64,000 bases of DNA from an uncultured Collinsella sp. (GCA_937989885.1 CALKBP010000035.1:5427-69426), one strand, 5' to 3'; positions 8,111 to 53,723 are shown, counted from the first letter of the stretch. Numbers and translations are program-made. The notes: generated by a model not told the origin, from the letters alone.

Positions 8111-8200
8111 TGGCGGAGAGAGGGGGATTCGAACCCCCGGAACGCTCTCGCGCTCAACGGTTTTCAAGACCGCCGCATTCAACCGCTCTGCCATCTCTCC
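8111..8200 (-). tRNA. tRNA-Ser (anticodon UGA)
   Basis: Reverse complement reads GGAGAGATGGCAGAGCGGTTGAATGCGGCGGTCTTGAAAACCGTTGAGCGCGAGAGCGTTCCGGGGGTTCGAATCCCCCTCTCTCCGCCA. Cloverleaf with anticodon loop CTTGAAA (UGA), long variable arm, T-loop GGTTCGAATCC and encoded CCA. Confidence 0.85.
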
Positions 8201-10461: not shown

Positions 10462-10586
10462 GAGCGCCTAGCGCGTTCGATGGGTTCGGATGACGACATG
10501 TTCCGAATCTGGTCAGGTCCGGAAGGAAGCAGCCATAAGGAGCCTCTGTCGGGCATCCGAATCCATCGAGCGCACGGGCGCTTTTT
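10462..10586 (+). ncRNA. ffs: Signal recognition particle RNA (small 4.5S-type SRP RNA)
   Basis: Contains the invariant domain IV sequence GGUCAGGUCCGGAAGGAAGCAGCC (24/24 identical to E. coli 4.5S RNA). Flanking arms pair as one long hairpin (gcgcctagcgcgttcgatgggttcggatg / catccgaatccatcgagcgcacgggcgc) followed by ttttt. Confidence 0.85.
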
Positions 10587-10913: not shown

Positions 10914-12755
10914 ATGATTGAGCTGCTCAGGCGTTTTGGTGGTAAGTTTCGCCGGTATATGGTGATTGGTCCTGCGTGCAAGTTGATCGAAGTAATCTTT
11001 GACCTGCTTACGCCGCTGGTGATTGCCCAGATGATTGATAGGGGCATCGGCGTGCACGATGTGAACGCTGTCGTCCACTACGGTATATTGCTTGCCGCCA
11101 TGGCCGTGATCGGCATCTCGTTTACGCTCGTCTGCCAAAAGATGGCGGCGCTGACCTCGCAGGGCATGGGCACCGACATTCGCGGTGCGCTCTACCAGCA
11201 CATCAACAAGCTGAGCTATGCTGAGCTCGATCGCTTTGGCACGCCGTCGCTCATCACGCGCATCACCAACGACGTCAATCAGGTGCAGCTCGCCGTGGCG
11301 CTGGGCGTGCGCATGCTTATCCGCTGGCCTTTCCTGGCGGTGGGCTCCATGGTTACGGCCCTCGCCATCGACCTTAAGCTCGGCATTATCTTTTTAATCT
11401 GCACGCCCGCCATCGGCCTGGTGTTTTGGTTTGTCATGGCGCGCTGCATTCCGTACTACAAGCAGCTGCAGGCAAAGCTCGACCGCATTGCGCTCATTTG
11501 CCGCGAGGGGCTTTCGGGCGCTCGTGTGGTCCGCGCGTTTGTGCGCGAGGATCACGAGCGCGAGCGTTTTGCCCAGGCGGCTGACGATCAGGCGCATGTC
11601 GCCATCGCGGTGGGCAAGCTCTCGTCGATTCTCAACCCCGTCACGTTTTTGGTGATGAACCTGGGCGTGTGCGCCATCCTGTGGGTGGGCGGCATCCAGG
11701 TGAATGTGGGCGAGCTCACGCAGGGCCAGGTCATGGCGTTTGTCAACTACATGACGCAGACGCTCACCTCCATCGTGTACGTCGCCAACCTGGTCGTGGT
11801 CTTTACCAAGGCGAGCGCCAGTGCGTCGCGTCTCAACGAGGTGCTCAATTGCGTGCCGAGCATCACCGACGAGGGCAACCAGCCGGTCGCGCTGCCCAAG
11901 CCGGGCAATGTCGCTCCCGTTCCTGCGCTGAGCTTGAGCCATGCGAGCTTCTCGTTTGGCGCCGGCGCGGCCAATGCTGTCAACGATGTGACGCTGGAAC
12001 TCCCACTGGGCAAAACGCTCGGCATTATCGGCGGCACGGGCAGTGGTAAGTCCACGCTCGTCTCGCTCATTCCGCGCCTGTACGATGCGGGTACCGGCAG
12101 CGTGAGCGTAATGGGTGCCGACGTGCGCACCTGGCTGCTCGACCAGCTGCGCCACGTGGTCGCGACCGTCCCGCAGCGCGCGTCGCTGGTGAGCGGCACC
12201 ATTCGCAGCAACCTGACCTGGCGCGACGAGTCGGCGACCGACGAGGAGCTCTGGGCGGCGCTCGATATGGCGCAGGCCAGCGAGTTCGTGCGCAACAAGC
12301 CGCAGGGCTTGGATGCCCCGGTCGAGGCGGGCGGCAAGAACTTCAGCGGTGGTCAGCGTCAGCGCCTGACCATTGCGCGTGCCCTAGTGGGCTCGCCGCA
12401 GGTTCTGATCATGGACGATTCCGCCTCGGCGCTCGACTTTAAGACCGATGCGGCGCTTCGCCACGCCATCCGCGAGCGCAGCGTGCGCGGCGCCGCCGAG
12501 GGCGGGCTGCCGCTGACGACCGTCATCGTGAGCCAGCGCGTCTCGACCGTGCGCGATGCCGACATGATCTGTGTGCTCGATCACGGTTCGGTTGCGGGCC
12601 TGGGTACGCACGACGAGCTGTACGCAAGCTGCCAGCTCTACCGCGAGATTTGCCAGTCGCAGCTCCGCCGTGAGGAGCTCGAGGGCCAGCAGGGGAGTGC
12701 GACGCCCGCTTCGGACTCCGCCCCTGCATCCACCCGCGCAAAGGAGGGCTGCTAA
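10914..12755 (+). CDS. ABC transporter ATP-binding protein/permease (exporter; first of a pair)
   Basis: TM domain followed by Walker A GGTGSGKST, signature FSGGQRQRLTIARAL, Walker B VLIMDDSASALD. ATG at 10914 after gatagggagcgcc. Confidence 0.8.
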   Translation: MIELLRRFGGKFRRYMVIGPACKLIEVIFDLLTPLVIAQMIDRGIGVHDVNAVVHYGILLAAMAVIGISFTLVCQKMAALTSQGMGTDIRGALYQHINKLSYAELDRFGTPSLITRITNDVNQVQLAVALGVRMLIRWPFLAVGSMVTALAIDLKLGIIFLICTPAIGLVFWFVMARCIPYYKQLQAKLDRIALICREGLSGARVVRAFVREDHERERFAQAADDQAHVAIAVGKLSSILNPVTFLVMNLGVCAILWVGGIQVNVGELTQGQVMAFVNYMTQTLTSIVYVANLVVVFTKASASASRLNEVLNCVPSITDEGNQPVALPKPGNVAPVPALSLSHASFSFGAGAANAVNDVTLELPLGKTLGIIGGTGSGKSTLVSLIPRLYDAGTGSVSVMGADVRTWLLDQLRHVVATVPQRASLVSGTIRSNLTWRDESATDEELWAALDMAQASEFVRNKPQGLDAPVEAGGKNFSGGQRQRLTIARALVGSPQVLIMDDSASALDFKTDAALRHAIRERSVRGAAEGGLPLTTVIVSQRVSTVRDADMICVLDHGSVAGLGTHDELYASCQLYREICQSQLRREELEGQQGSATPASDSAPASTRAKEGC

Positions 12756-14615
12756 ATGAATCCGTATACTTCTTCCGGTTCGGTCGCCACGATGACGGCC
12801 AACGTGTCCGGTAATGATAACCTCAACGACCTGGACGACGGCCCACGCCAGCCCGGCGACCCTGAGCGCTATCCCGTGGGCGCGGTGACCCGCCGCCTGC
12901 TGGGCTATGTTCGCCCGCACCGCGTCTCGTTTGCGGCGTCGTTTGTGAGCGCCGCCATCTCGGTGATCTTGCAACTCTATACGCCCATCCTCATCGGCGA
13001 GGGCATCGACCTCATCGTCGCCGCCGGGCGGGTGGACTTCGACGCGCTGCTGCCGCTTGTCACCAAGCTCGCAATTGTCGTCGTAGGCGCTGCGGCCTTC
13101 CAGTGGCTGCAGGGCTACTGCGTTAACCGCCTGTCCTACGAGACGGTGCGCGACATGCGCGTGGAGGCGAGCGACAAGCTCAGCCGCATGCCGCTCAGCT
13201 TTATCGACAGCCATGCCCACGGCGACCTTATGAGCCGCGTGGTCAACGATGTCGACCAGGTTGGCGATGGCTTGCTGCAAGGCTTCACGCAACTCTTTAC
13301 CGGTGTTATCACCATCGTTGGCACGCTCGCGTTTATGCTCTCCATTAACCTGACCATGACGCTCGTGGTGGTGCTCGTCACGCCGCTTTCCATCTTTGCA
13401 GCCGGCGCCATCGCCAAGCTTTCTAACAAAAGCTTTACGGCCCAGCAGCGTATTCAAGGGCAGCTCGGTGGTCATATCGAGGAGTACGTGGGCGAGCAGA
13501 AGCTTGTCGACGCCTTTGCCTACGGCCCCAACGCCCAGCAGCGCTTCGATGCCCTCAATGCCGAGCTCTACACCGCGGGCGAGCGCGCGCAGTTTATGGG
13601 TTCGCTCTCCAACCCCGGCACGCGCTTTATCAACAACATCATCTATGCCGTGGTCGCTGTGATCGGCTGCGTGGGCGTGATCACGGGCGTGCCCGCGGCG
13701 CTTACGGTGGGCGGCGTGCAGATCTTCCTGTCCTATGCCAACCAGTACACCAAGCCGTTCAACGAGGTCACCAACGTCATTACGCAGATCCAGACCGCGT
13801 ACGCCTCGGCGCGCCGCATGTTTGCGCTGCTCGATGCGCGCGAGCAGGAGCCCGATGCGCCGGATGCCGTGGAACTTGCCGCCCCGAAGGGCGAGGTTTC
13901 GTTTGAGCATGTGGACTTTAGCTATGTGCCCGACCGCAAACTGCTGCAGGACATCTGCATCGAGGCCAAGCCCGGCATGCGCTTTGCCCTGGTCGGCCCC
14001 ACGGGCTGTGGCAAGACGACGCTCATCAATTTGCTACTGCGTTTTTACGATATCGATGCCGGTCGCATTGCGGTCGATGGTCGTTCCTCGCGTGACTACA
14101 CGCGCGCAAGCCTGCGCCGCGCCTTTGGCATGGTGCTGCAGGACACTTGGCTGTTCGAGGGCACGGTGGCGGAAAACATCGCCTACGGCTGTCCCGACGC
14201 CACGCGCGAGCAGGTTATCGAAGCTGCCAAGCGCGCGCATGCGCACAAGTTTATCGTGCAGCTGCCAGGCGGCTACGATACGGTCATCGGCGAGGACGGC
14301 GGCACGTTTAGCCAGGGTCAAAAACAGCTGCTGTGCATCGCGCGCGTCATGCTCACTGACCCGGCGATTTTGCTGCTGGACGAGGCAACGTCGAGCATCG
14401 ATACACGTACCGAGCTGCAGGTGCAGGCGGCATTCGATGAGCTCATGGCCGGTCGCACAAGCTTTGTCGTGGCGCACCGCCTGAGCACCATCCGCAACGC
14501 CGACTGCATTCTGGTGATGCGCGACGGCCAGATTATCGAGCGCGGCACGCACGACGAGCTGCTAGTGGCAGACGGCTTCTACGCCGAGCTCTACCGCAGC
14601 CAATTCGCCCAGTGA
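12756..14615 (+). CDS. ABC transporter ATP-binding protein/permease (exporter; second of the pair)
   Basis: ATG immediately after the taa of the upstream gene. Walker A GPTGCGKTT, signature FSQGQKQLLCIARVML, Walker B ILLLDEATSSID. Confidence 0.8.
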   Translation: MNPYTSSGSVATMTANVSGNDNLNDLDDGPRQPGDPERYPVGAVTRRLLGYVRPHRVSFAASFVSAAISVILQLYTPILIGEGIDLIVAAGRVDFDALLPLVTKLAIVVVGAAAFQWLQGYCVNRLSYETVRDMRVEASDKLSRMPLSFIDSHAHGDLMSRVVNDVDQVGDGLLQGFTQLFTGVITIVGTLAFMLSINLTMTLVVVLVTPLSIFAAGAIAKLSNKSFTAQQRIQGQLGGHIEEYVGEQKLVDAFAYGPNAQQRFDALNAELYTAGERAQFMGSLSNPGTRFINNIIYAVVAVIGCVGVITGVPAALTVGGVQIFLSYANQYTKPFNEVTNVITQIQTAYASARRMFALLDAREQEPDAPDAVELAAPKGEVSFEHVDFSYVPDRKLLQDICIEAKPGMRFALVGPTGCGKTTLINLLLRFYDIDAGRIAVDGRSSRDYTRASLRRAFGMVLQDTWLFEGTVAENIAYGCPDATREQVIEAAKRAHAHKFIVQLPGGYDTVIGEDGGTFSQGQKQLLCIARVMLTDPAILLLDEATSSIDTRTELQVQAAFDELMAGRTSFVVAHRLSTIRNADCILVMRDGQIIERGTHDELLVADGFYAELYRSQFAQ

Positions 14616-14642: not shown

Positions 14643-15908
14643 CTAGGGCGCGAGCGTGTCAACGGGGGCAACGATGATGCCCTCGGGCGTTGTGTGGACC
14701 GGCATGCCGAACCCGATGACGATGAGTTTGGCCGCGGGAGGCCTCTCGCCGCGTTCGACCAGCTTGCGCTCGAGTCGAAGCAGGTTTGCAGACGCCTCGG
14801 GGATCTGCGGGCTTCCGAGTTTTACTTCCACGGCAATCCAAGTTCCATCGCGCCTGTGTATAACGGCATCGACCTCGAGATCGTCGGCGTCGTGGTAGTG
14901 GGACACCGATGAGTCATTTGCGGCGGCATAGACCTTAAGGTCGTGCAGGACGAGGGATTCGAAGAGCAGCCCCAGTGTCTTCGGGTCGGATGCCAATGAC
15001 TCCGGATTTGCTCCGAGCAGCGCAACGGCAAGCGAAGGGTCGGCGAGGTGCCTTTTCGCACTTTGCCGCAGCTTTACCGGCGACCTGAGCGCCGGATGCC
15101 AAGCCGGGATATCGTCGATGATATTGATTCGTCTCAGAGCATCCATGTATCTGGAGACCGAATTCTTCGAAACGCCGGTACCGATATCTTTATCGATGGA
15201 CTTCGATCCAGCAAGTGTCGACTCATTTCGCGCAAGCGATGTCAAAAGAGACCTGACCTTGACCGGATCACGTTTGACGCCGTCAGTTCTAGAAACATCC
15301 GATTCGCATACGCCATCAACATAAGCAGCGGCAATCCGCATAGCATTTTCAGTTGTTTTCCCCATCGCTTGAGGCCAACCACCGCGACACAGCAAATCGG
15401 CGATGCCGGCGACACCAGCGATCGATCCGACCGCCTGCTTGGCGGGGTGGCCGGAAAGCAGCGCTCTAATCGAAGCCGCGCCCGAAGAAACGCCGAGCTC
15501 AAACAGCGTCATGGTATCCATTCGCAATCTAGCTATTCGCCCAACGCCGCTATGCATTGGCTGCTTCGAATCTTGCGGCGTTGCTGAGCCCGTAAGAATA
15601 AACTGTCCGGATTCTCCCTGTCTTGCGTCACACTCGAAACGTATGGCATCCCATAGTTTTGGTTCTTCCTGCCATTCGTCGATGAGTCTAGGCGACGGTC
15701 CTGCTATTGCCTGCGCTGGGTCGATCCGAGCCAACTGGAGAGCGGAAAAATTTCCAGCCGGATCGGAAAGAGACAAGGATGATTTGGCAAAACGTCTGGC
15801 CGTAGTGGTCTTTCCGCACCACTTCGGGCCTTGAATGAGAACCGCACCGAAGATATCGAGATTATGCCTGATTGCCTTGTCGATGCATCTGTCTACATAC
15901 CTATCCAT
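14643..15908 (-). CDS. AAA+ ATPase fused to a C-terminal PD-(D/E)xK-like domain (COG1373 / AAA_14 + DUF4143 architecture), paralog 1
   Basis: Walker A LIQGPKWCGKTT near the N-terminus. C-terminal LEVDAVIHRRDGTWIAVEVKLG matches a D...E-V-K nuclease-like motif. Same architecture as the genes at 48312 and 52281. Confidence 0.7.
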   Translation of the reverse strand: MDRYVDRCIDKAIRHNLDIFGAVLIQGPKWCGKTTTARRFAKSSLSLSDPAGNFSALQLARIDPAQAIAGPSPRLIDEWQEEPKLWDAIRFECDARQGESGQFILTGSATPQDSKQPMHSGVGRIARLRMDTMTLFELGVSSGAASIRALLSGHPAKQAVGSIAGVAGIADLLCRGGWPQAMGKTTENAMRIAAAYVDGVCESDVSRTDGVKRDPVKVRSLLTSLARNESTLAGSKSIDKDIGTGVSKNSVSRYMDALRRINIIDDIPAWHPALRSPVKLRQSAKRHLADPSLAVALLGANPESLASDPKTLGLLFESLVLHDLKVYAAANDSSVSHYHDADDLEVDAVIHRRDGTWIAVEVKLGSPQIPEASANLLRLERKLVERGERPPAAKLIVIGFGMPVHTTPEGIIVAPVDTLAP

Positions 15909-15954
15909 ACCGTCACCTTCTCAACTTGCCTTGATTATGTATTTTACCAGCTGC

Positions 15955-16045
15955 GTGGTGACGATTGACGGTAATCTGTGGTGACGATTGATTACGAACT
16001 ATGGTGACGATTGGCGGGTATCTGTGGTGACGGTTGTCATCGATT
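15955..16045. promoter_or_regulatory. Four direct repeats of tggtgacgattg at ~22-25-bp spacing, upstream of the AAA+/nuclease gene start (15908)
   Basis: gcgtggtgacgattgacgg / tgtggtgacgattgattac / tatggtgacgattggcggg / tgtggtgacggttgtcatcgattc, read directly. Confidence 0.5.
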
Positions 16046-16240
16046 CGGGGCATAGGGCAGCTTAGCTGTCTCAAAGCTTATAGATTTCGGGGCTTACACC
16101 GCGGACGTTTTGCCCCCATCGGTGTCGCCCATGTCGCCAATCGACAGACGGTGGTTTACATCTGTCACGTTAGTACTAAGATATTCATCTAATAAATTGC
16201 ATTAGTGGCTTTAGTTTTGGGGGAAACGAGCAACGTGACT

Positions 16241-25090: not shown

Positions 25091-25093
25091 CGA

Positions 25094-25125
25094 ATGTGAC
25101 AAAGGGGCAGTCCCTTTGTTACATT
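25094..25125. repeat. REP-like palindrome family 2, copy 2 (aatgtgacaaaggggcagtccctttgttacatt)
   Basis: Near-perfect palindrome directly after the nitroreductase stop. Confidence 0.65.
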
Positions 25126-25249
25126 TCATATCGCCGCGGTGGCCTAAAGGCCGTATAAATGTTTATTTAGCTGGGAAAACAGTGCCATTCAAACATGGGC
25201 CGATTACCTATAATTCCTTCGAACATTAAAGTTGGGAGGAAACCGGCTT

Positions 25250-38444: not shown

Positions 38445-38473
38445 TTCGACTCCTTAATACTGGTGACCGGTGG

Positions 38474-38506
38474 AATGCGACAGAGGGGCTGTCCCTTTGT
38501 CGCATC
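38474..38506. repeat. REP-like palindrome family 2, copy 3 (aatgcgacagaggggctgtccctttgtcgcatc)
   Basis: Between the MFS stop and the oxidoreductase start. Confidence 0.6.
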
Positions 38507-46983: not shown

Positions 46984-47808
46984 ATGAAGAACACTCAGCT
47001 GCTGCTGATCAACGATATGTGCGGATACGGCAAGGTCGCGCTTTCCGCCATGCTGCCGGTGCTGTCGCACATGGGCTACCGTATCCATAACCTGCCGACG
47101 GCACTTGTGTCCGATACGCTCAACTATCCCAAGTTCTACATCCACGACACCACCGAGTACGTGCGCCAAAGCCTCGCTATCTGGGAGGAGCTCGGCTTTG
47201 AGTTCGACGCCATCTCGACCGGCTTTATCGTGACCGAGGAAGAGACGCGCATCATCTCGGACTTTTGCCACCGCCGTGCGCAAAAGGGCACCAAGGTGTT
47301 CGTTGACCCCATCATGGGCGACAACGGCAAGCTCTATGCGGGCGTGCCCGAGTCCACAATCGGTCTCATGAGGCACCTGCTCGAGTGCGCCGACTACGCG
47401 GTTCCCAACTACACCGAGGCCTGTTTGCTCACCGACACGCCTATCGTCGAGCAAATTACGCCCGATGAGGCCCGCGCCCTTGTGGACGCTGTGCGCGAGC
47501 TGGGTGCCAAGTCGGTGGTCATTACGAGCGCCGTAGTCAATGGCACGAACGCGGTTATTGGTTACGACCATGTGGCGGGGGAGTACTTTACGATTCCCTT
47601 TGAGCTCATTCCGGTCTATTTCCCGGGCACGGGCGACACGTTCTCGGCGGTGCTCGTCGGCCGCGTTATGGCAGGCTGGAGTCTGCAGCGCGCGACGTCC
47701 GATGCCATGCGCGTGGTGGCAGAGCTTATCGAACGCAATGCCGACCAAGAGGACAAATCGGCCGGCCTTCCCATCGAGGCCTGCCTGGATGTGATCGACC
47801 ATGAGTAA
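46984..47808 (+). CDS. pdxK: Pyridoxal/pyridoxamine kinase (PdxK/PdxY, ribokinase superfamily)
   Basis: N-terminal LLINDMCGYGKVALSAMLPVLSHMGY and C-terminal GTGDTFSAVL motifs characteristic of PdxK/PdxY. Confidence 0.7.
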   Translation: MKNTQLLLINDMCGYGKVALSAMLPVLSHMGYRIHNLPTALVSDTLNYPKFYIHDTTEYVRQSLAIWEELGFEFDAISTGFIVTEEETRIISDFCHRRAQKGTKVFVDPIMGDNGKLYAGVPESTIGLMRHLLECADYAVPNYTEACLLTDTPIVEQITPDEARALVDAVRELGAKSVVITSAVVNGTNAVIGYDHVAGEYFTIPFELIPVYFPGTGDTFSAVLVGRVMAGWSLQRATSDAMRVVAELIERNADQEDKSAGLPIEACLDVIDHE

Positions 47809-48130
47809 CGCCGGCGAGGGCGGCATCAGGCCTGCGGGCGAGAGCAAGCCGCTCGGCGCGTCGCGTGGCAAGCGTCCGCGTATCCGCGTGAGCTGCGTGG
47901 ACCAGCTGGGTGCGTGCCGTTGTCACCATGGTCACAAGCCCGGCGACGTTTTTGACTTCGACCGAGACCGCGGCAAGATGTGCGCCATGGCCTGCCATGT
48001 GGGCTTTCCCTATATCGATATCCTGCGCTATGGCGGGACCGTGCCTGGAAACGAGCCCGGCGCGGCAAAGTTCTGCTGCCCCGAAGTCGATACACTGAAC
48101 GTCTGGCTTGCCGAGATCGTTGACGAGTAG
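47801..48130 (+). CDS. Small Cys/His-rich protein of unknown function (possibly TIGR04076-like)
   Basis: 109 aa with clustered C/H (CVDQLGACRCHHGHKPGDVFDF..., CAMACHVGFPY, FCCPEV). Start overlaps the pdxK stop by 8 nt (ATGA-type coupling). Family assignment from memory only. Confidence 0.45.
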   Translation: MSNAGEGGIRPAGESKPLGASRGKRPRIRVSCVDQLGACRCHHGHKPGDVFDFDRDRGKMCAMACHVGFPYIDILRYGGTVPGNEPGAAKFCCPEVDTLNVWLAEIVDE

Positions 48131-48138
48131 TCGAGCGC

Positions 48139-48170
48139 AATGTGGCAAAGGGACAGCCCCTTTGCCACAT
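48139..48170. repeat. REP-like palindrome family 2, copy 4 (aatgtggcaaagggacagcccctttgccacatt, perfect)
   Basis: Read directly. Confidence 0.7.
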
Positions 48171-48211
48171 TCGCCGGTGGTGCCCCTTCTTTTGCTTATA
48201 ATCTCAAATCT

Positions 48212-48292
48212 CTGCATTTCATTTGATTTTAGGTTCTAAAATTCTGCGTTTCATCGATAATCAAGCGTATAAAACTTTGCATTTCATTTGAT
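48212..48292. promoter_or_regulatory. Three direct repeats ctgcatttcatttgat / ctgcgtttcatcgat / ttgcatttcatttgat (~33-bp spacing) immediately upstream of AAA+/nuclease paralog 2
   Basis: Read directly; the last repeat ends 20 bp before ATG 48312. Confidence 0.5.
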
Positions 48293-48311
48293 GACACTGA
48301 GGAGAGAGCCT

Positions 48312-49673
48312 ATGCTGCGCAGGAAAATAGCGGCAGAGCTGGAGCGTTGGCTGAAGTCTTCCGAGCAAAAGGCCTTGTTCATTACGGGTTCTCGCCAGAT
48401 TGGCAAAAGCTATTCGATTCGCGCATTTGGCAAAGCCAACCATGCAACCTACATCGAGCTTAACCTCATGGAAAACCGCCAGGCAAAAGATGCTCTTCTC
48501 GAGGCGCGGGATGCCGATGATTTCATCAGCAGGGTGACGCTTCTTTCGGGAAAGTCGATTGCACCAGGCAAAACGCTCGTGTTTATCGATGAGGTCCAAG
48601 AGGCCCCCGACATCATGACGATGGCAAAGTTCCTTGTTGAGGACGGGAGGTGCCGTTGGGCGTTTTCGGGGTCAATGCTCGGGACCCAGTTCAAGGGCGT
48701 CAGGTCCTATCCCGTGGGGTATGTCCACGAGCTTAGGATGTTCCCGCTCGATTTTGAGGAGTTTTGCTGGGCAATCGGGGTGAGCGAGGGGGCTCGCCAA
48801 ACGATACGTGACGCCTGTATCAGCGAGAGGCCCATTCCTGATTACATTCATGACGCGATGATGGCAAACTTCAGGACCTATACCGTTGTCGGCGGAATGC
48901 CGGAGGTCGTGCAGCGTTTCCTTGACACGCGGGGCGACCTTGCCTCTGTTCGTCAGCTGCAGTCAGAGCTCAACGAACAGTACCGGCGGGATATCTCCAA
49001 GTATGCAAGCGGGCGAGCCCTTCAGGCGCAGAGCATCTACGATCAGCTCCCTATTATGCTCGAGGGCGAAAACAAGCGCTTCGTGCTCAATTCCATTGAC
49101 CCTAAGGCGCACTACGAGAAGTATCAGCGAGATTTTGTATGGCTTGTCGATGCCGGCGTTGCTCTCAAAGCCGATATCGTAACCGAGCCAAAATCGCCCC
49201 TGCTCAAGACGGCACGACCATCGCAGTTCAAGCTATATCAATCGGATACGGGCATGTTGATGGCGCGCTACCCCGTTGGAGTCGCCCAAGCGGCGTATCT
49301 TGATAGCAAGGAGCCCAACCTGGGCGGCATTTACGAAAACGTGGTGGCCCAGCAGCTGGCTGCCCAAAACCGCCAGCTTTACTACTATCAGACAAAAAAG
49401 CGCGGTGAAGTGGACTTTGTGGTCGATGGGCCGGATGGGACGGCTGTTCCGATCGAGGTTAAATCGGGCTCCTATTACCACGCGCACGCTGCGCTCGGTC
49501 ATGTGCTTGATACGGCTGAATATGGCGTAAGGCTCGGGATTGTTTTCTCGAGAGGGAACGTTGAGCGCAACGGAGCGGTTCTCTATTTGCCGCTATATGC
49601 GACCTGGGCCCTTTCGGATGTTTTGGGCGACTCCTGTGCCGAGGGGATAAAGTTGGAGGTCAAGCCGGTCTAG
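48312..49673 (+). CDS. AAA+ ATPase fused to a C-terminal PD-(D/E)xK-like domain (AAA_14 + DUF4143 architecture), paralog 2
   Basis: Walker A ITGSRQIGKSYS; C-terminal GEVDFVVDGPDGTAVPIEVKSG (D..E-V-K). ATG 48312 after ggagagagcc. Confidence 0.7.
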   Translation: MLRRKIAAELERWLKSSEQKALFITGSRQIGKSYSIRAFGKANHATYIELNLMENRQAKDALLEARDADDFISRVTLLSGKSIAPGKTLVFIDEVQEAPDIMTMAKFLVEDGRCRWAFSGSMLGTQFKGVRSYPVGYVHELRMFPLDFEEFCWAIGVSEGARQTIRDACISERPIPDYIHDAMMANFRTYTVVGGMPEVVQRFLDTRGDLASVRQLQSELNEQYRRDISKYASGRALQAQSIYDQLPIMLEGENKRFVLNSIDPKAHYEKYQRDFVWLVDAGVALKADIVTEPKSPLLKTARPSQFKLYQSDTGMLMARYPVGVAQAAYLDSKEPNLGGIYENVVAQQLAAQNRQLYYYQTKKRGEVDFVVDGPDGTAVPIEVKSGSYYHAHAALGHVLDTAEYGVRLGIVFSRGNVERNGAVLYLPLYATWALSDVLGDSCAEGIKLEVKPV

Positions 49674-49685
49674 GGCCAGTCCCGG

Positions 49686-49716
49686 ATGTGACAAAGGGAC
49701 AGTACCTTTGCCACAT
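49686..49716. repeat. REP-like palindrome family 2, copy 5 (atgtgacaaagggacagtacctttgccacat)
   Basis: Read directly; 13 bp after the AAA+ gene stop. Confidence 0.65.
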
Positions 49717-49730
49717 TCATAAGCGTGGAT

Positions 49731-49833
49731 TTATGAGCGTGGATTTTCTCCCACCGAGATAACGAGCGTGGATTTTCTTCCGTTTAGAGCGCACTCGAAC
49801 GCTCAAAGTGGGAGAAAATCCACGCTCGTTTTA
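49731..49833. repeat. Three direct copies of gagcgtggattt(tct) plus one inverted copy, forming a long hairpin that ends in tttt (complex terminator-like structure)
   Basis: gagcgtggattttcttcc ... gggagaaaatccacgctcg followed by tttta. The 28-nt loop contains its own small palindrome gagcgcactcgaacgctc. Confidence 0.5.
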
Positions 49834-49873
49834 TGCCGATGGCGTGGCCCGTGTGTCCGCGCCGCCCGAGCGC

Positions 49874-50320
49874 CTACAGCTGCTCAAGCATAGCGGTGCA
49901 ACCGGCGAGTACATCGCGGTAGGTGGCGTCGAAATTGCCGGTGTACCAGGGATCGGCCACGTCGCCGGGGCGATCGGTCCAATCGAGCAAGCGCGTAATC
50001 TTGACGTCGGGGTCGTCGCCAAAAATGCGACGCAGGCCGCGCGCGTTCTCAGCATCCATATATACAATGTGGTCCCAGTCGCCATACTCCGCGCGACGCA
50101 CCTGGCGGGCACGGTGCGCGACGACGGGAATCCCGACTTCGCGCAGCTTGGCGACCGTGCCATGATGCGGCGGGTTGCCAAGCTCCTCGGTCGAGGTCGC
50201 AGCGGAATCGATGACAAACTCCGTCTCGCGCCCGGCGCGCCGCACCAGCTCGGTAAACACCGACTCAGCCATCGTCGAGCGACAGATGTTGCCATGGCAG
50301 ATAAAAAGAACGCGTTGCAC
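49874..50320 (-). CDS. Low-molecular-weight protein-tyrosine phosphatase (arsenate reductase/LMW-PTP fold)
   Basis: P-loop VLFICHGNICRS (CX5R) at the N-terminus, DP motif (DVADPWY) near the C-terminus. Confidence 0.8.
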   Translation of the reverse strand: MQRVLFICHGNICRSTMAESVFTELVRRAGRETEFVIDSAATSTEELGNPPHHGTVAKLREVGIPVVAHRARQVRRAEYGDWDHIVYMDAENARGLRRIFGDDPDVKITRLLDWTDRPGDVADPWYTGNFDATYRDVLAGCTAMLEQL

Positions 50321-50628
50321 AGGGTTTCCTTTCTAGACAGGGCCGTACGGCCTGCGGTGGCACTGTAACACAGCCCTTTCCAATGAAGCCAACTGCGCAG
50401 AGTGGAGGATGACGCAGCTCACGCCCACCGTCTGATGTAAAGCGGGCAAAAACGTTTTCCACGAAGACAGGGGTGCTCAAGATTTCATGTGTTCCAGATA
50501 CATGAAATCGAAGAAAAACGTGTATCTGAAATACACGAAATTGCACTGCTGAAGCTTCCAGGCGGATAAACACTACTCGTATGGGACGGTTTTCATCGGT
50601 TGCTCGCCACCTTGGGCTATGTTCGCTC

Positions 50629-51930
50629 CTATGCCTGCATCCGGGGCTGTGCTGATTGACGCTTGCGCTCCCAGCGAGCCAACTTAATCGTCACCAGTGT
50701 GAGGGCCCAGGCCACAAGCGAGAACGCGGCGCCCACTGCGCCCACGTACGCAATGCCAATGCTGCTTACCACGGCGCCGCCCACTGCGGTGCCAAACGAA
50801 ATGCCGATATTAAATGCCATGGGCTCAACCGAACTTGCGAGTACCATCGACTTGGGATGGCGGCTGCGTGCCACGTCCATAAAGTGCGTGATGCACGACA
50901 CCGAGAACAGGTACATGAGTAGCGCCAAGCTAAAGACAAAGACCAGCGCGAGCGGCATGGTGCCGCCCACAGCAAACAGCCCGAGTAACGCCGCGGCCTG
51001 CAGCACAAACGTCACAAGCAGTGCCTTCATGCCAAAGCGCGCGTCGATCCATCCGCCCAGGATGTTCGAGATCAGGCAGAACACGCCGTAGGCCATAAGC
51101 GTGGTACTGGCTTGGACCGTGCCCATGCCCAGCACCTGCTCAAGATAAGGCGTCACGTAGCCGTAGAACACATAGACCGAGCCCACGCCAAACAAGAAGA
51201 TGAGCATGCCGGTGATGATGCTCGGCTCGCGTAGCAGCCCCGCCTGCTCGCGGAAGGTGGCGGGCTCATCGGTCTGCCCGGCGCGAGGCATAAACGCCAC
51301 GAGCGCTCCGCAGATCAGAACGGCAAAGGTCAGCGTGCCGTACATGGCTACGTGCCAATCGAGCGTGTCGGCTACAAACTTGCCGATCGAAGTGACAAAG
51401 ACCATTGCCACGGAAAACGCACCATATACCACCGAGATGGCAAGCGAAGTTTGCTGCGGGGACAGAAGCTCAGGAATGTACGTCACGCCCACGGCGAGCA
51501 GCGCACCCGAGACAGAGCCCAGGACAATGCGCGAGGCGAACAGCACTTGAAAGTTGGGCGCCAACGCCATGACTAGGTTGCCGAGCACAAAGACGATGCT
51601 GTAGCACACGAGCAGCTGGTAGCGGCGGAAGCGCCCCGTGCTGAGCGCAAGTACCGGCGTGGCGATAGCGTAGACGAGCGCGAATACGCTGATGAGCTGG
51701 CCTGCGGTGGCAAGCGATATGCCGAGCTCCGTCGCCAGGTCGCTCTCGATGCCGATGACCACGAACTCGGAGCAGCCGAGCGAGAATCCCAACAGCACGA
51801 GCAGCGCCAGGCAGAGCTTGGTGCGCGCGGGGGAGAGCGCGGCGGCGGTTGGCTTACTTTTAGGCGTGGTTGCGGCGGTCAAGGTTGTCACTCCAATGTC
51901 GCATGAATAAGCTGAATTCAGTCCCTGCAA
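50629..51930 (-). CDS. MFS transporter (DHA1-like efflux)
   Basis: 12 TM helices, typical MFS loop motifs; ~40-aa N-terminal leader before TM1. Confidence 0.65.
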   Translation of the reverse strand: MQGLNSAYSCDIGVTTLTAATTPKSKPTAAALSPARTKLCLALLVLLGFSLGCSEFVVIGIESDLATELGISLATAGQLISVFALVYAIATPVLALSTGRFRRYQLLVCYSIVFVLGNLVMALAPNFQVLFASRIVLGSVSGALLAVGVTYIPELLSPQQTSLAISVVYGAFSVAMVFVTSIGKFVADTLDWHVAMYGTLTFAVLICGALVAFMPRAGQTDEPATFREQAGLLREPSIITGMLIFLFGVGSVYVFYGYVTPYLEQVLGMGTVQASTTLMAYGVFCLISNILGGWIDARFGMKALLVTFVLQAAALLGLFAVGGTMPLALVFVFSLALLMYLFSVSCITHFMDVARSRHPKSMVLASSVEPMAFNIGISFGTAVGGAVVSSIGIAYVGAVGAAFSLVAWALTLVTIKLARWERKRQSAQPRMQA

Positions 51931-52136
51931 CTATACCAGAATGTGTCAGGTGCCCGCCCCCTTTGTCGCAGGCTGCGCTTGCCTGTATAGTCGCAATGCA
52001 GGCGAAGATGGTCTCAGGTACATCGCGGGCGACAGGAGATCCCGTGGGCATGCACACGACAAAGGTTGCAGTGGGCGAGGGCAAGTTTGCGCTCGAGGAG
52101 GCCCTCGAGGCCCCCTCCATTCGCGTTGCCCTCGCG

Positions 52137-52168
52137 ATGTGACAAAGGGACAGTCCTTTTGTCACATT
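52137..52168. repeat. REP-like palindrome family 2, copy 6 (atgtgacaaagggacagtccttttgtcacat)
   Basis: Read directly. Confidence 0.65.
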
Positions 52169-52174
52169 CCATTC

Positions 52175-52247
52175 CTTAGAAACTTGCAAATTCTGCAAGT
52201 TTCTAAGGTAACATCTTATAAACTTGCAAAAAATGCAAGTTTATAAG
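52175..52247. promoter_or_regulatory. Two tandem perfect 33-bp palindromes (cttagaaacttgcaaattctgcaagtttctaag and cttataaacttgcaaaaaatgcaagtttataag) upstream of AAA+/nuclease paralog 3
   Basis: Read directly; operator-like, AT-rich relative to the genome. Ends ~33 bp before ATG 52281. Confidence 0.55.
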
Positions 52248-52280
52248 GTTTCATGTCTGGTCGGGCGCTAGGGAGACTCT

Positions 52281-53597
52281 ATGGATATCGTTCGCCGAAG
52301 CCGTTATCTTGATCGACTCATTGCTTTTCAGGATACCGACCTCATCAAAATCGTGACGGGCATACGCCGTTGTGGCAAATCAACGTTATTGGACATGATG
52401 AGGGACTATCTGGCGCAACAGGGGGTGCCAGCCGAGCGTTTGCTGACCTTTAAGATGGAATCTCTAGAGTACGCGGGAATTACGGATTATCTGACGTTTT
52501 ATCGTATGGTTCGGGAGCGCATCGACGGCATCGATCATCCCTACCTGTTCTTTGACGAGCTCCAGAATGTCGAAGGTTGGGAAAAGGCAGTCAACTCGCT
52601 CCGAGTGGATTTGCCGTGCGATATCTATGTCACGGGCTCCAATGCCTTTTTGCTATCGAGCGAGCTCGCAACGCTTATCTCGGGCCGATATGTCGAGGTC
52701 AAGATGCAGCCTCTCACGTTTAGCGAATACCTTGTTTTTCGCTCGATTGATGCGGTCGCCGCTGAAGGGCTTGGTGAGAGGGTCGAACTCGTTTCCAAGA
52801 CGGGCGATCGCCTTAATTCAAATACCGTGCTTGAGCAGTACATAACCTATGGCGGCATGCCGTTTCTGGCCCATGATGAGCCGAGACGTGAGCTGTGTCG
52901 CGACTATATCCGTAGCCTTTACCAGACGATCGTCGCGCGCGATATCCTGTCGCGTGCGACGCGTAGGGGTCGCGGAGCTATCACCAAGCGCGATGTTCTC
53001 GAGCGGCTCTGTGCGTATCTGGCAGACAACATCTCCAACCAAACCTCGGTCAACAAAATCGTAGGGACGCTCAACGAATCGGCAGGCGGTAAGACCAACG
53101 CATCGACGGTGTCGGCATATATTGACGCTCTGGAAGAGACGTACCTGTTTACCAAAGTAAAAAGGTATGACATCAAGGGGCGGGAGCTTCTTAAGACAGG
53201 CGGTAAATTTTACATAGCTGATACGGGAATTCGCAGCTATCTTGACGGATATAGAGGTAGCGATAGCGGAAGGATGCTCGAGAACGTTATCTACAACCAG
53301 CTTGTATTTGAAGGATACGAAGTGTTTTGCGGCCATCTGCGCGCGGGGGAAATCGACTTTGTCGCAATCGGCGAGGGATCGGACCGCAAATATATCCAGG
53401 TTACCGAACGGATCGATGCCGAGGCGACGAGAGAACGCGAGCTGCGACCGCTCAAGCTAAGCACGCTAGGAAAAATTCCTGATTCGTATGAGAAGATCCT
53501 GATTGTCAGGGATGGCGACCATCCAACGGACATCGATGGCATCAGAATCGTGGGGGCAGTCGACTTCTTGTTGAGAAATAAGATTACCCGCGGCTAA
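52281..53597 (+). CDS. AAA+ ATPase fused to a C-terminal PD-(D/E)xK-like domain (AAA_14 + DUF4143 architecture), paralog 3
   Basis: Walker A VTGIRRCGKSTL; C-terminal GEIDFVAIGEGSDRKYIQVTER (D..Q-V-T variant). Confidence 0.7.
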   Translation: MDIVRRSRYLDRLIAFQDTDLIKIVTGIRRCGKSTLLDMMRDYLAQQGVPAERLLTFKMESLEYAGITDYLTFYRMVRERIDGIDHPYLFFDELQNVEGWEKAVNSLRVDLPCDIYVTGSNAFLLSSELATLISGRYVEVKMQPLTFSEYLVFRSIDAVAAEGLGERVELVSKTGDRLNSNTVLEQYITYGGMPFLAHDEPRRELCRDYIRSLYQTIVARDILSRATRRGRGAITKRDVLERLCAYLADNISNQTSVNKIVGTLNESAGGKTNASTVSAYIDALEETYLFTKVKRYDIKGRELLKTGGKFYIADTGIRSYLDGYRGSDSGRMLENVIYNQLVFEGYEVFCGHLRAGEIDFVAIGEGSDRKYIQVTERIDAEATRERELRPLKLSTLGKIPDSYEKILIVRDGDHPTDIDGIRIVGAVDFLLRNKITRG

Positions 53598-53618
53598 ACG
53601 CAAGCAGATTCGTTTCGA

Positions 53619-53649
53619 TGCGACAAAGGAGCAGCCCTTTTTCGCATTC
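53619..53649. repeat. REP-like palindrome family 2, copy 7 (atgcgacaaaggagcagccctttttcgcat, diverged)
   Basis: Read directly; 22 bp after the paralog 3 stop. Confidence 0.55.
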
Positions 53650-53723
53650 CGTGCGAGCCCTCGTGCCGTCTGAGGGTATAAGGCTAGCAAGTGTTTATTT
53701 GCGAGGCCTAAGGGGCGCCCCGT

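What the first reader, a model, noticed from the sequence alone, without database searches (positions are those of the whole stretch)
48139..53649. Three paralogous AAA+ ATPase / PD-(D/E)xK-nuclease-like (DUF4143-type) genes, two of them bracketed by REP-like palindromes with private upstream repeat arrays
The genes at 14643-15908(-), 48312-49673(+) and 52281-53597(+) share one architecture: an N-terminal Walker A (GKTT/GKSY/GKST) and a C-terminal D...(E/Q)-V-(K/T) motif. That motif matches a PD-(D/E)xK restriction-endonuclease-like fold, i.e. an ATPase-nuclease fusion of unknown role. For the two downstream paralogs a family 2 REP palindrome sits immediately on both sides (48139/49686 and 52137/53619), so each gene looks like a discrete cassette. 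Each paralog also carries a different short repeat array just 5' of its start: 4x tggtgacgattg, 3x ctgcatttcatttgat, and two tandem 33-bp perfect palindromes. This pattern suggests individually regulated, possibly mobile or defence-related NTPase-nuclease modules rather than housekeeping genes.
Basis: partly seen in the sequence, partly recalled or inferred. Interest (0 to 1): 0.7.

Follow-up and report, generated by a model that had tools for sequence, protein, structure and literature searches.

The report
Self-regulated ATPase-nuclease genes in Collinsella
The window (Collinsella aerofaciens or a close relative) holds three distantly related members of a very common but uncharacterised ATPase-nuclease family (COG1373 / PADLOC candidate PDC-S01); each carries its own evenly spaced repeat array at its promoter, which is conserved with the gene across many bacteria, while the flanking REP palindromes are ordinary gene-end hairpins found throughout the genome.

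Summary
Three ORFs (14643-15908-, 48312-49673+, 52281-53597+) are AAA_14+DUF4143 proteins. This is COG1373, already classed as PD-(D/E)XK, and is PADLOC's untested "phage defence candidate" PDC-S01. They are only 20-26% identical, so they belong to old subfamilies and are not recent duplicates.

P1 and P2 keep the E..D..ExK motif. The whole P3 subfamily has Q-V-T instead and lacks the lysine.

The REP palindromes are a dispersed family of gene-end hairpins. 32 of 36 unique sites sampled from gut metagenomes are unrelated to these genes, P1 has none, and a NUDIX gene is bracketed in the same way. P2 and P3 are nevertheless present or absent between strains, and the breakpoints lie at or near REPs.

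The most interesting result concerns the upstream arrays. They are conserved features of each subfamily and travel with the gene into unrelated genomic contexts:
- P1 type: direct repeats, 23-bp period.
- P2 type: direct repeats, 32-33-bp period, in seven lineages down to 25% identity.
- P3 type: AAACTT/AAGTTT inverted boxes over the promoter, in many phyla.

In P1, the array and the ATPase-wHTH half were exchanged together between strains. The arrays are most likely self-operators bound by each protein's own winged helix. This is inferred, not shown.

The parts
14643..15908 (-). P1: 421-aa AAA_14+DUF4143 protein (PADLOC PDC-S01 model PDLC04790) with a canonical E..D..EVK motif. Syntenic between a flavodoxin gene and ABC-transporter genes in all strains examined.
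15955..16036 (-). P1 array: 4 direct repeats of CAATCGTCACCAC at an exact 23-bp period. It ends just upstream of a conserved extended -10 (TGGTAAAAT).
15100..16141 (-). P1 mosaic segment: array, promoter and codons 1 to about 270 (ATPase plus winged helix). It is 35-83% identical to strain L117, while both flanks are 95-100% identical.
48137..48173 (.). REP-like palindrome (14-bp stem, -31 kcal/mol, no T tail) after the 109-aa ORF. The left breakpoint of the P2 indel falls exactly at its start.
48212..48292 (+). P2 array: CTGCATTTCATTTGAT-type direct repeats at 48212, about 48244 (degenerate) and 48277, with a period of 32-33 bp.
48312..49673 (+). P2: 453-aa AAA_14+DUF4143 protein (PDLC04792, E 6e-189). 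E342, E382 and K384 are invariant and D368 is present in at least 90% of its subfamily. Absent in strain L006.
49683..49718 (.). REP-like palindrome directly after the P2 stop codon.
49722..49830 (.). Second, unrelated hairpin (GAGCGTGGATTTTCTCCCAC / GTGGGAGAAAATCCACGCTC) whose left arm is present three times. It is the right junction of the P2 indel. CGAGCG is repeated at both ends of the 1.63-kb insert.
50337..50573 (-). Scar of a fourth family member (P4, intact in L012/L174). It keeps the last ~25 codons (SDGGRELRHPPLCAVGFIGKGC) and an orphan operator palindrome at 50516-50540.
51937..51973 (.). Decayed REP copy. It is intact at this position in L011, L012, L014, L017 and L019. It marks the left breakpoint of the P3 indel.
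52134..52170 (.). REP-like palindrome upstream of P3. Homology with L008/L012 resumes at 52135, after their extra 5.8-kb block.
52174..52248 (+). P3 operator-like element: two palindromes, (C)CTTAxAAACTTGCA-N5-TGCAAGTTTxTAAG(G), 40 bp apart. The core is conserved in orthologs of other Collinsella species and of Ellagibacter. AAACTT/AAGTTT boxes are conserved across phyla.
52281..53597 (+). P3: 438-aa AAA_14+DUF4143 protein (PDLC04787, E 3.5e-139). Its subfamily has E334..D359..Q373-V-T375, with no catalytic lysine. Absent in L011, L014, L017 and L019.
53616..53650 (.). Degenerate REP after the P3 stop codon. The right breakpoint of the P3 indel is 13 bp further on, at 53663.
25091..25127 (.). 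REP copy between a nitroreductase gene and a convergent sulfatase-like gene, not next to a DUF4143 gene.
38472..38506 (.). REP copy after an MFS gene and before a GFO/IDH/MocA oxidoreductase gene, not next to a DUF4143 gene.

Best explanation
**What the genes are.** They are three independent single-gene modules of the COG1373 / PDC-S01 family. Each protein has three parts: a STAND- or Arch_ATPase-like NTPase (nucleotide-binding domain plus helical domain), a winged helix, and a C-terminal restriction-endonuclease-like domain.

**What the arrays are (inferred).** Each gene brings its own promoter-proximal array of 2-5 binding sites in helical phase: 23 bp for P1, 32-33 bp for P2 and 40 bp for P3. 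I infer that the protein's own winged helix binds this array as a cooperative oligomer and represses its own promoter. Each paralog would then be insulated from the others. The array and the recognition helix would co-evolve.

**What the nuclease domain does (inferred).** It is catalytically plausible in P1 and P2. In P3 it lacks the lysine and may be inactive or atypical. It would be the effector of an NTP-dependent DNA-directed activity. Anti-phage defence is the leading candidate, but it has not been demonstrated.

**What the REPs are.** They are a separate, genome-wide family of stable gene-end hairpins in Collinsella. They are dense in this variable region and coincide with recombination and indel breakpoints. 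They are not a dedicated part of the modules.

**Shown versus inferred.** Shown here: family membership, fold of the N-terminal part, motif conservation, conservation and co-inheritance of the arrays, presence/absence polymorphism, and REP distribution. Inferred: self-binding and autorepression, nuclease activity, and a defence role.
For: **Family membership and fold.**
- Pfam hits and PADLOC PDC-S01 hits with E 4e-67, 6e-189 and 3.5e-139.
- AF2 models have pLDDT 85-87.
- The catalytic E, D, E and K are conserved in the P2 clade (three invariant, D368 in at least 90%).
- The C-terminal profile matches Cas4 on the D..ExK motif.

**Arrays travel with the gene.**
- P2-type arrays keep a 32-33-bp period in the window, L100, L102, L104 (Bifidobacterium), L239, L242 and L243. 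Protein identity falls to 25%, the genomic contexts differ, and the repeat sequence is lineage-specific.
- P1-type arrays have an exact 23-bp period in the window, L117 and L114, with different cores.
- In P3-type loci, AAACTT/AAGTTT boxes average 1.36 per upstream region against 0.31 in AT-matched controls (Mann-Whitney P 6e-12).
- At least 3 copies of a 10-mer occur in 42% of the 76 P3-type upstream regions against 11% of controls (Fisher P 3e-7).
- The boxes overlap the -35/-10 region.
- The motifs occur nowhere else in the window.

**Link to the winged helix.**
- The P1 array and the ATPase-wHTH half were exchanged as one block between strains, while the nuclease half stayed identical.
- The recognition-helix variant tracks the repeat core: KNSVS with GTCACCAC, and RSTLR with TGTTTCAC in two contexts.

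**REPs are generic.**
Against: - No binding or expression data exist. The helix-to-repeat covariation rests on two or three lineages and is confounded by shared ancestry.
- The consensus scan found no sigma-70-like promoter upstream of P2 or P3.
- The fold searches listed only matches to the N-terminal part, so the nuclease fold rests on motif, secondary structure, the literature and a sub-threshold Cas4 match.
- PDC-S01 has never been shown to defend against phage.
- P1 is syntenic in every contig examined, and 3-4 copies per genome is unusual for a defence gene.
- The P4 scar keeps an operator without its gene, so arrays can persist alone.
Confidence: 0.58

Rival explanations
1. REP-gene-REP units are discrete mobile cassettes, and the flanking REP palindromes are their functional ends, for example moved by a REP-associated transposase or by REP-REP recombination.
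For: - The P2 indel starts exactly at REP 48137 and contains both REPs.
- The P3 unit is bounded by REP 52134 and by 53663, which is 13 bp past REP 53616. The empty sites keep one REP.
- The 5.8-kb block of L008/L012 abuts REP 52134.
- REP presence is itself polymorphic: L019 has one after the aldose epimerase gene and the window does not.
Against: - 32 of 36 unique REP sites are not near family genes. The 4 that are belong to the very locus the pattern was built from.
- P1 and the P1/P2 orthologs in other contexts have no REPs.
- A NUDIX gene is bracketed in the same way.
- The R-M insertion in L015 has no REP at its ends.
- The right end of the P2 indel lies in a different hairpin, with a CGAGCG direct repeat.
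- The empty and filled P3 sites differ by non-homologous sequence, so this is a replacement rather than a clean insertion.
Confidence: 0.15
2. The upstream repeats are not self-operators. They are bound by some other factor, act as RNA structures in the 5' UTR, or are promoter/UP-element duplications. Their association with the genes would reflect only shared ancestry.
For: - P3-type and P4-type elements are perfect palindromes that could fold as RNA hairpins.
- AT-rich upstream regions carry some repeats anyway: 75% of AT-matched controls have at least 2 copies of a 10-mer.
- No protein-DNA data exist.
Against: - P1 and P2 arrays are direct repeats and cannot form hairpins.
- The period is conserved (23 or 32-33 bp) while the sequence is replaced completely between lineages. 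This fits co-evolving protein-DNA recognition rather than shared ancestry.
- The arrays move with the gene into unrelated contexts and phyla where no other linked gene is conserved.
- The array and the wHTH half are exchanged together.
- There is no Rfam match.
Confidence: 0.2
3. The genes are not immune genes. They are autoregulated DNA-binding NTPases with a housekeeping, regulatory or selfish (addiction-like) role. The PDC-S01 label would then be a by-product of their abundance near mobile DNA.
For: - PDC-S01 is untested and was called only by 'guilt by embedding'.
- P1 is syntenic in all contigs examined and was indexed in 1367 blocks of the collection.
- There are 3-4 divergent copies per genome.
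- The P3 subfamily lacks the catalytic lysine, yet is conserved across phyla.
- The family is rare in viral contigs: 6 loci.
Against: - P2, P3 and P4 sit in a strain-variable hot spot that also receives an R-M system and IS110 elements.
- Orthologs lie next to methylases, RelB, HipA, IS and Mob genes.
- The N-terminal half of P1 shows allele replacement like that of diversifying immune sensors.
- The catalytic residues are strictly conserved in the P2 clade.
Confidence: 0.3

Closest known systems
COG1373 / Pfam AAA_14 (PF13173) + DUF4143 (PF13635) / PADLOC PDC-S01
   Same: All three proteins hit both Pfam domains above threshold. They hit three different PDC-S01 HMMs nearly end to end. The architecture is the same: ATPase plus a PD-(D/E)XK-superfamily domain (PMC12988326; PMC3424549).
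   Different: Nothing differs in architecture. New here: the P3 clade replaces ExK with Q-V-T. I also describe a conserved promoter-proximal repeat array for each subfamily. I found no mention of such arrays in the papers retrieved.
Archaeal AAA+ ATPases SSO1545 (2fna) and PABY2304 (2qen), and STAND NTPases (NB-ARC, CED-4, Avs)
   Different: There is no repeat-type sensor domain (LRR, TPR or WD40). A C-terminal nuclease-like domain takes the place of an N-terminal effector. Sequence identity is only 8-19%.
Iteron or operator arrays of autoregulated DNA-binding proteins (plasmid Rep iterons; parC/ParR of plasmid R1), from general knowledge
   Same: There are several direct repeats in helical phase (about 2 or 3 turns) directly upstream of, and overlapping, the promoter of the gene for a winged-helix protein. 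The repeat sequence is specific to each lineage.
   Different: There is no replication or partition context. Binding is not shown. The P3 and P4 types use inverted rather than direct repeats.
REP (repetitive extragenic palindrome) elements of proteobacteria
   Same: They are 31-37-bp imperfect palindromes that are dispersed and extragenic. Most lie just after stop codons, form stable hairpins without a T tract, and vary in presence between strains.
   Different: The sequence family and the phylum (Actinomycetota, Coriobacteriia) are different. They occur singly rather than as BIME clusters. No RAYT transposase link was examined.
Cas4 / RecB-like PD-(D/E)xK nucleases
   Same: Cas4 (4r5q) is the only PDB sequence matched by the C-terminal domain profile. 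The match aligns GxVD...PiEvKsG.
   Different: E is 0.12, below significance. There is no Fe-S cluster cysteine motif. The domain is fused to an NTPase.

Membership tests
COG1373 (Pfam AAA_14 + DUF4143) | Both Pfam domains above the gathering score, in N-to-C order | tested here: met
   P1 scores 44.7 (AAA_14) and 111.9 bits (DUF4143). P2 scores 82.7 and 92.6. P3 scores 103.3 and 52.9. The cut-offs are 27 and 28.1.
PADLOC PDC-S01 | Full-length match to a PDC-S01 HMM | tested here: met
   Matches are to PDLC04790 (E 4.4e-67), PDLC04792 (E 6.1e-189) and PDLC04787 (E 3.5e-139).
PADLOC PDC-S01 as an anti-phage system | Protection against phage infection | not testable with these tools
   The literature calls it an untested candidate.
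P-loop AAA+/STAND-type NTPase | Walker A GK[ST], Walker B hhhhDE, and a fold match to AAA+/STAND structures | tested here: met
PD-(D/E)xK nuclease superfamily | Catalytic E ... (P)D ... (D/E)xK residues | tested here: met
   Met for P1 and P2. P1 has E317, D347, E361 and K363. P2 has E342, D368, E382 and K384; three are invariant and D368 is present in at least 90% of 30 homologs.
PD-(D/E)xK nuclease superfamily | Catalytic (D/E)xK in P3 | tested here: not met
   Q373 and V374 are invariant. Position 375 is T, A or C and never K in 30 homologs of 45-82% identity.
PD-(D/E)xK nuclease superfamily | alpha-beta-beta-beta-alpha-beta core fold similar to solved nucleases | tested here: inconclusive
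REP elements | Short imperfect palindrome, many dispersed extragenic copies | tested here: met
   The window has 7-8 copies. The metagenome sample has 36 unique sites. Hairpin energies are -17 to -31 kcal/mol.
REP elements | Cognate RAYT (Y1) transposase in the genome | not tested
Intrinsic (Rho-independent) terminator | GC-rich hairpin followed by a T/U tract | tested here: not met
   The hairpin is present but has no T tract. None of the REPs was called by the terminator scan.
Autoregulatory operator / iteron array | Repeated sites in helical phase overlapping the gene's own promoter, conserved with the gene | tested here: met
Autoregulatory operator / iteron array | Binding by the gene's own product, with repression | not testable with these tools
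   The only indirect support is co-exchange of the array with the wHTH half, and helix-to-core covariation.

The most novel reading that the evidence does not exclude
The whole COG1373/PDC-S01 family, one of the most abundant uncharacterised 'defence candidates' in prokaryotes, may consist of sequence-specific DNA-binding NTPase(-nuclease)s. Each would assemble as a phased oligomer on its own lineage-specific repeat array at its own promoter. The array together with the ATPase-winged-helix half would form an exchangeable specificity module that diversifies by allele replacement, while the nuclease half stays constant. Self-array binding might be more than autorepression. It could be the resting state from which the protein is released or activated.
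Probability: 0.45. Interest if true: 0.65.

Novelty: new member of a known kind. Interest (0 to 1): 0.45.

Why it matters
PDC-S01/COG1373 is reported as the fourth most common putative defence system in prokaryotes and the most frequent single locus in rumen genomes. No mechanism, regulation or phenotype is known for it.

Every subfamily examined here carries a helically phased, co-evolving repeat array at its promoter. That gives a concrete, cheap hypothesis to test (self-binding and autorepression) and a handle on DNA specificity.

It also warns against reading REP hairpins as cassette ends. The P3 clade is counted as a 'nuclease' but lacks the catalytic lysine.

Tried and rejected
- **PDB sequence search with P3.** It returned only a spurious repeat-protein hit.
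- **NCBIfam.** No family was found.
- **Genome-contig scan with the P3 alignment.** The organism came from cluster names instead.
- **Rfam.** Nothing was found in the region.
- **Consensus promoter scan.** It found no convincing sigma-70 promoter upstream of P2 or P3, and the number of sites was below the shuffle expectation.
- **Terminator scan.** It did not call the REPs.
- **Literature search for 'AAA_14'.** It returned only noise. One search failed on syntax.
- **Recent-duplication reading.** I considered that the three genes are recent paralogs and rejected it, because identity is 20-26%.
- **Transposon-end reading.** I considered that the arrays are transposon ends and rejected it. They lie on one side of the gene only, and the P4 deletion left its array behind.
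- **Helix-to-half-site covariation across 76 P3-type loci.** Half-sites have a locus-specific 4-5-nt extension, but the pattern cannot be separated from phylogeny.

Full report
**1. Observation.**

The three ORFs are present as described. Each hits Pfam AAA_14 and DUF4143 above the gathering scores.
- Walker A is GKTT, GKSY and GKST.
- Walker B is hhhhDE.
- The C-terminal motifs are EVD..EVK in P1 and P2, and EID..QVT in P3. All are visible in the translations and in the homolog alignments.

The REP-like palindrome ATGTGACAAAGGGACAGxCCTTTGxCACAT occurs at 48137, 49683 and 52134. A degenerate copy lies at 53616. Shuffled sequence gives no matches.

The upstream arrays are real.
- P1 has four CAATCGTCACCAC copies at an exact 23-bp period.
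- P2 has two good CTGCATTTCATTTGAT copies and one degenerate copy, at a 32-33-bp period.
- P3 has two perfect-armed palindromes of 35 and 33 bp, 40 bp apart.

The three proteins are only 20-26% identical. They match three different PADLOC models. They are therefore members of old subfamilies and not recent duplicates.

Cluster names identify the organism as Collinsella aerofaciens or a close Collinsella species.

**2. What the proteins are.**

DUF4143/COG1373 is listed as PD-(D/E)XK family no. 100 in Steczkiewicz et al. 2012 (PMC3424549). All three proteins match PADLOC's PDC-S01.

PDC-S01 is a 'phage defence candidate' found by guilt-by-embedding and has not been tested experimentally. It is reported as the fourth most common defence-type locus in prokaryotes. 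It is described as an ATPase fused to a PD-(D/E)XK domain (PMC12988326; PMC13356809; Payne et al. preprint).

The C-terminal approximately 120 residues have the alpha-beta-beta-beta-alpha-beta order. E lies on the helix, D on strand 2 and ExK on strand 3. E342, E382 and K384 are invariant, and D368 is present in at least 90%, in 30 P2 homologs. A profile of this domain finds only Cas4 in the PDB, aligned on the D..ExK motif, at a non-significant E of 0.12.

The fold searches did not list nucleases, because N-terminal matches filled the tables.

The whole P3 subfamily has an invariant Q373-V374 followed by T, A or C, and never lysine. Calling P3 a nuclease is therefore not justified by its motif.

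**3. The REP palindromes.**

A profile search finds 7-8 copies in the window: 3172 (weak), 25091, 38472, 48137, 49683, 52134, 53616, and a decayed copy at 51940. All but the decayed 51940 copy lie just after a gene's stop codon. P1 has none.

They form stable hairpins of -17 to -31 kcal/mol without a T tract. The terminator scan did not call them.

I analysed 80 loci.
- They gave 36 unique sites.
- 21 of these lie within 80 bp after an ORF stop codon.
- Only 4 lie near a family gene. All four belong to the same P2/P3/P4 locus from which the pattern was derived.

In related strains, REPs also follow the NUDIX, MerR, aldose-epimerase and peptidase M20 genes. The NUDIX gene of L012 is bracketed exactly as P2 and P3 are. 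REP presence is itself polymorphic between strains. Orthologs of P1 and P2 in other genomic contexts have no REPs.

REPs are therefore generic elements that are locally dense in this variable region.

**4. Presence/absence and breakpoints.**

Contigs carrying identical proteins show that the 48-54-kb stretch is a strain-variable hot spot.
- L006 lacks P2. Window 48138-49871 is replaced there by 123 bp. The left break falls exactly at the start of REP 48137. The net insert of about 1.63 kb (48138 to about 49768) carries both REPs and is flanked by CGAGCG. Its right end lies in an unrelated hairpin whose left arm is triplicated.
- L011, L014, L017 and L019 lack P3. Window 51971-53662 is replaced there by about 112 bp of unrelated sequence. 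One intact REP sits at the position of the window's decayed copy.
- L008 and L012 carry an extra 5.8-kb block (NUDIX-LpdD, CitMHS, UbiD, flavoprotein, MerR) that ends at REP 52134. The window keeps only the first 18 codons of the NUDIX gene.
- L012 and L174 also carry a fourth family member, P4. The window keeps only its last ~25 codons and part of its operator palindromes.
- L015 has an R-M system inserted in the same interval. L003 and L014 have IS110 elements nearby.

In contrast, P1 is syntenic in all eight contexts shown. It was indexed in 1367 blocks of the collection.

The REPs are not specific to these units, and the events look like replacements or deletions rather than clean transposition.

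**5. The upstream arrays (main result).**

The arrays are not accidents of this genome.

*P2 type.* Orthologs at 79% (L100), 69% (L102) and 59% identity (L104, Bifidobacterium lemurum) were examined. So were viral-contig relatives at 40%, 30% and 25% identity (L239/L240, L242, L243). All carry 3-4 direct repeats at a 32-33-bp period immediately upstream. The genomic contexts are unrelated. The repeat sequence changes from lineage to lineage (CTGCATTTCAT..., CTGCATTTCGT..., AAACTTGGAATTTTTGACA..., TTGGAAAAGCGGCAAA, GAAAAATGTGTTAAA, TTATTTCTCGGATTTGAGTA).

*P1 type.* The window, L117 and L114 have exact 23-bp periods. The cores differ (GTCACCAC, TGTTTCAC, TAGACCCAC). All arrays end at a conserved TGGTAAAAT-type extended -10.

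*P3 type.* The AAACTTGCA-N5-TGCAAGTTT core is kept in other Collinsella species and in Ellagibacter, at 58-62% protein identity. A total of 76 loci from many phyla were examined.
- AAACTT/AAGTTT boxes average 1.36 per 150-bp upstream region, against 0.31 in AT-matched control upstream regions from the same loci (P 6e-12). They peak at -90 to -55.
- In Firmicutes-type loci the boxes overlap recognisable -35/-10 hexamers.
- At least three copies of a 10-mer occur in 42% of family upstream regions, against 11% of controls (P 3e-7).
- Each locus adds its own 4-5-nt extension to the box.

*P4 type.* It has three TTTCGTGTAYTTCARRTACACGAAA palindromes.

None of the motifs occurs elsewhere in the window.

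**6. Link between array and protein.**

I compared the window with L117, which has the same synteny. DNA identity is 95-100% on both sides. It drops to 35-83% between about 16141 and about 15100. This interval covers the array, the promoter and codons 1 to about 270, meaning the ATPase and the winged helix. The C-terminal 158 residues are identical. The array and the DNA-binding half were therefore exchanged as one block.

Within the predicted recognition helix (aligned to P3 helix 274-286), the variants track the repeat core.
- The window has VSKNSVSRY with the core GTCACCAC.
- P0346 and P0395, which lie in different contexts, share VSRSTLRRY and the core TGTTTCAC.
- P0402 has VSKNSISRY with TAGACCCAC.

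This suggests that each protein's own winged helix reads its array. The sample is small and related by descent, so this remains an inference.

**7. Mechanism proposed.**

Each gene is a self-contained module. A STAND- or Arch_ATPase-like NTPase with a winged helix binds, as a cooperative oligomer, to 2-5 sites spaced by whole helical turns at its own promoter, and represses it. Paralogs are insulated from one another by different site sequences.

The C-terminal PD-(D/E)xK domain is the effector in P1, P2 and P4. In P3 it is atypical or inactive. The biological role is unproven, and anti-phage or anti-plasmid defence is the leading candidate.

Section 2 covers what is shown for membership, fold and motifs. 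Sections 3-6 cover the REP distribution, polymorphism, array conservation and co-inheritance. Self-binding, repression, nuclease activity and defence are inferred.

**8. Comparison and novelty.**

The genes are ordinary members of a known, abundant, uncharacterised family, so I file them as a new member of a known kind.

In the papers I retrieved I found no description of the subfamily-specific, phase-conserved promoter arrays, of the P1 array-plus-wHTH allele exchange, or of the lysine-less P3 clade. These points give the family a testable regulatory and DNA-recognition hypothesis.

The REP part of the finding is largely explained away.

Overall interest is moderate, at 0.45.

Noticed in passing
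window 50337-50573 (- strand): This is the deletion scar of a fourth DUF4143 gene (P4, 456 aa, intact in L012 at 12029-13399 and in L174). The last ~25 codons survive inside ORF 50265-50573. An orphan operator palindrome survives at 50516-50540, with a diverged second one beside it.
   Followed up: yes
window 52044-52098 (+), versus L012 15009-15063: The first 18 codons of a NUDIX/LpdD-chaperone gene (GMHTTKVAVGEGKFALE) remain. The 5.8-kb block NUDIX-CitMHS-UbiD-flavoprotein-MerR, present in L008 and L012, is deleted in the window. The deletion ends 36 bp before REP 52134.
   Followed up: yes
window 15100-16141: A sharp mosaic lies within P1. The operator array and the N-terminal ~270 codons are 35-83% identical to strain L117, while both flanks are 95-100% identical. 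This indicates allele replacement by recombination.
   Followed up: yes
window 49722-49830: A second palindromic element (GAGCGTGGATTTTCTCCCAC ... GTGGGAGAAAATCCACGCTC) lies between P2 and the LMW phosphatase gene. It has three copies of its left arm. The P2-less strain L006 has one left arm and a differently duplicated right side. No other copy occurs in the window.
   Followed up: partly
window ~55555, versus L019 15399-15433: Strain L019 has a REP copy directly after the aldose-1-epimerase gene and the window has none. Homology breaks exactly there. L003, L007, L008 and L011 have a REP after the peptidase M20 gene. REPs are therefore themselves insertion/deletion polymorphic.
   Followed up: partly
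L015 12303-15745; L003 19894-21006; L014 6862-8099: Other strains carry a restriction-modification cluster (RelB-EcoRI-methylase fusion, D12 methyltransferase, PLD-like nuclease) in the LMW phosphatase-MFS interval, where L012 carries P4. They also carry IS110-family transposases and a Fic gene nearby. The region is a general integration hot spot.
   Followed up: no
window 47801-48130 (+): A conserved 109-aa cysteine-rich ORF with no Pfam hit overlaps the end of the phosphomethylpyrimidine-kinase-like gene by 8 bp. It is present in all related contigs.
   Followed up: no
L011 13660-13771 and the equivalent positions in L014, L017 and L019: The P3-less allele carries a different hairpin with a T tail (AAACCGTCACAACATTCG...CGAATGTTGTGACGGTTTTT). 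It looks like a classical terminator and is absent from the window.
   Followed up: no
window 8114-8200 (-) and 10477-10572 (+): Rfam finds a tRNA and the bacterial small SRP RNA. These are ordinary features unrelated to the finding.
   Followed up: no
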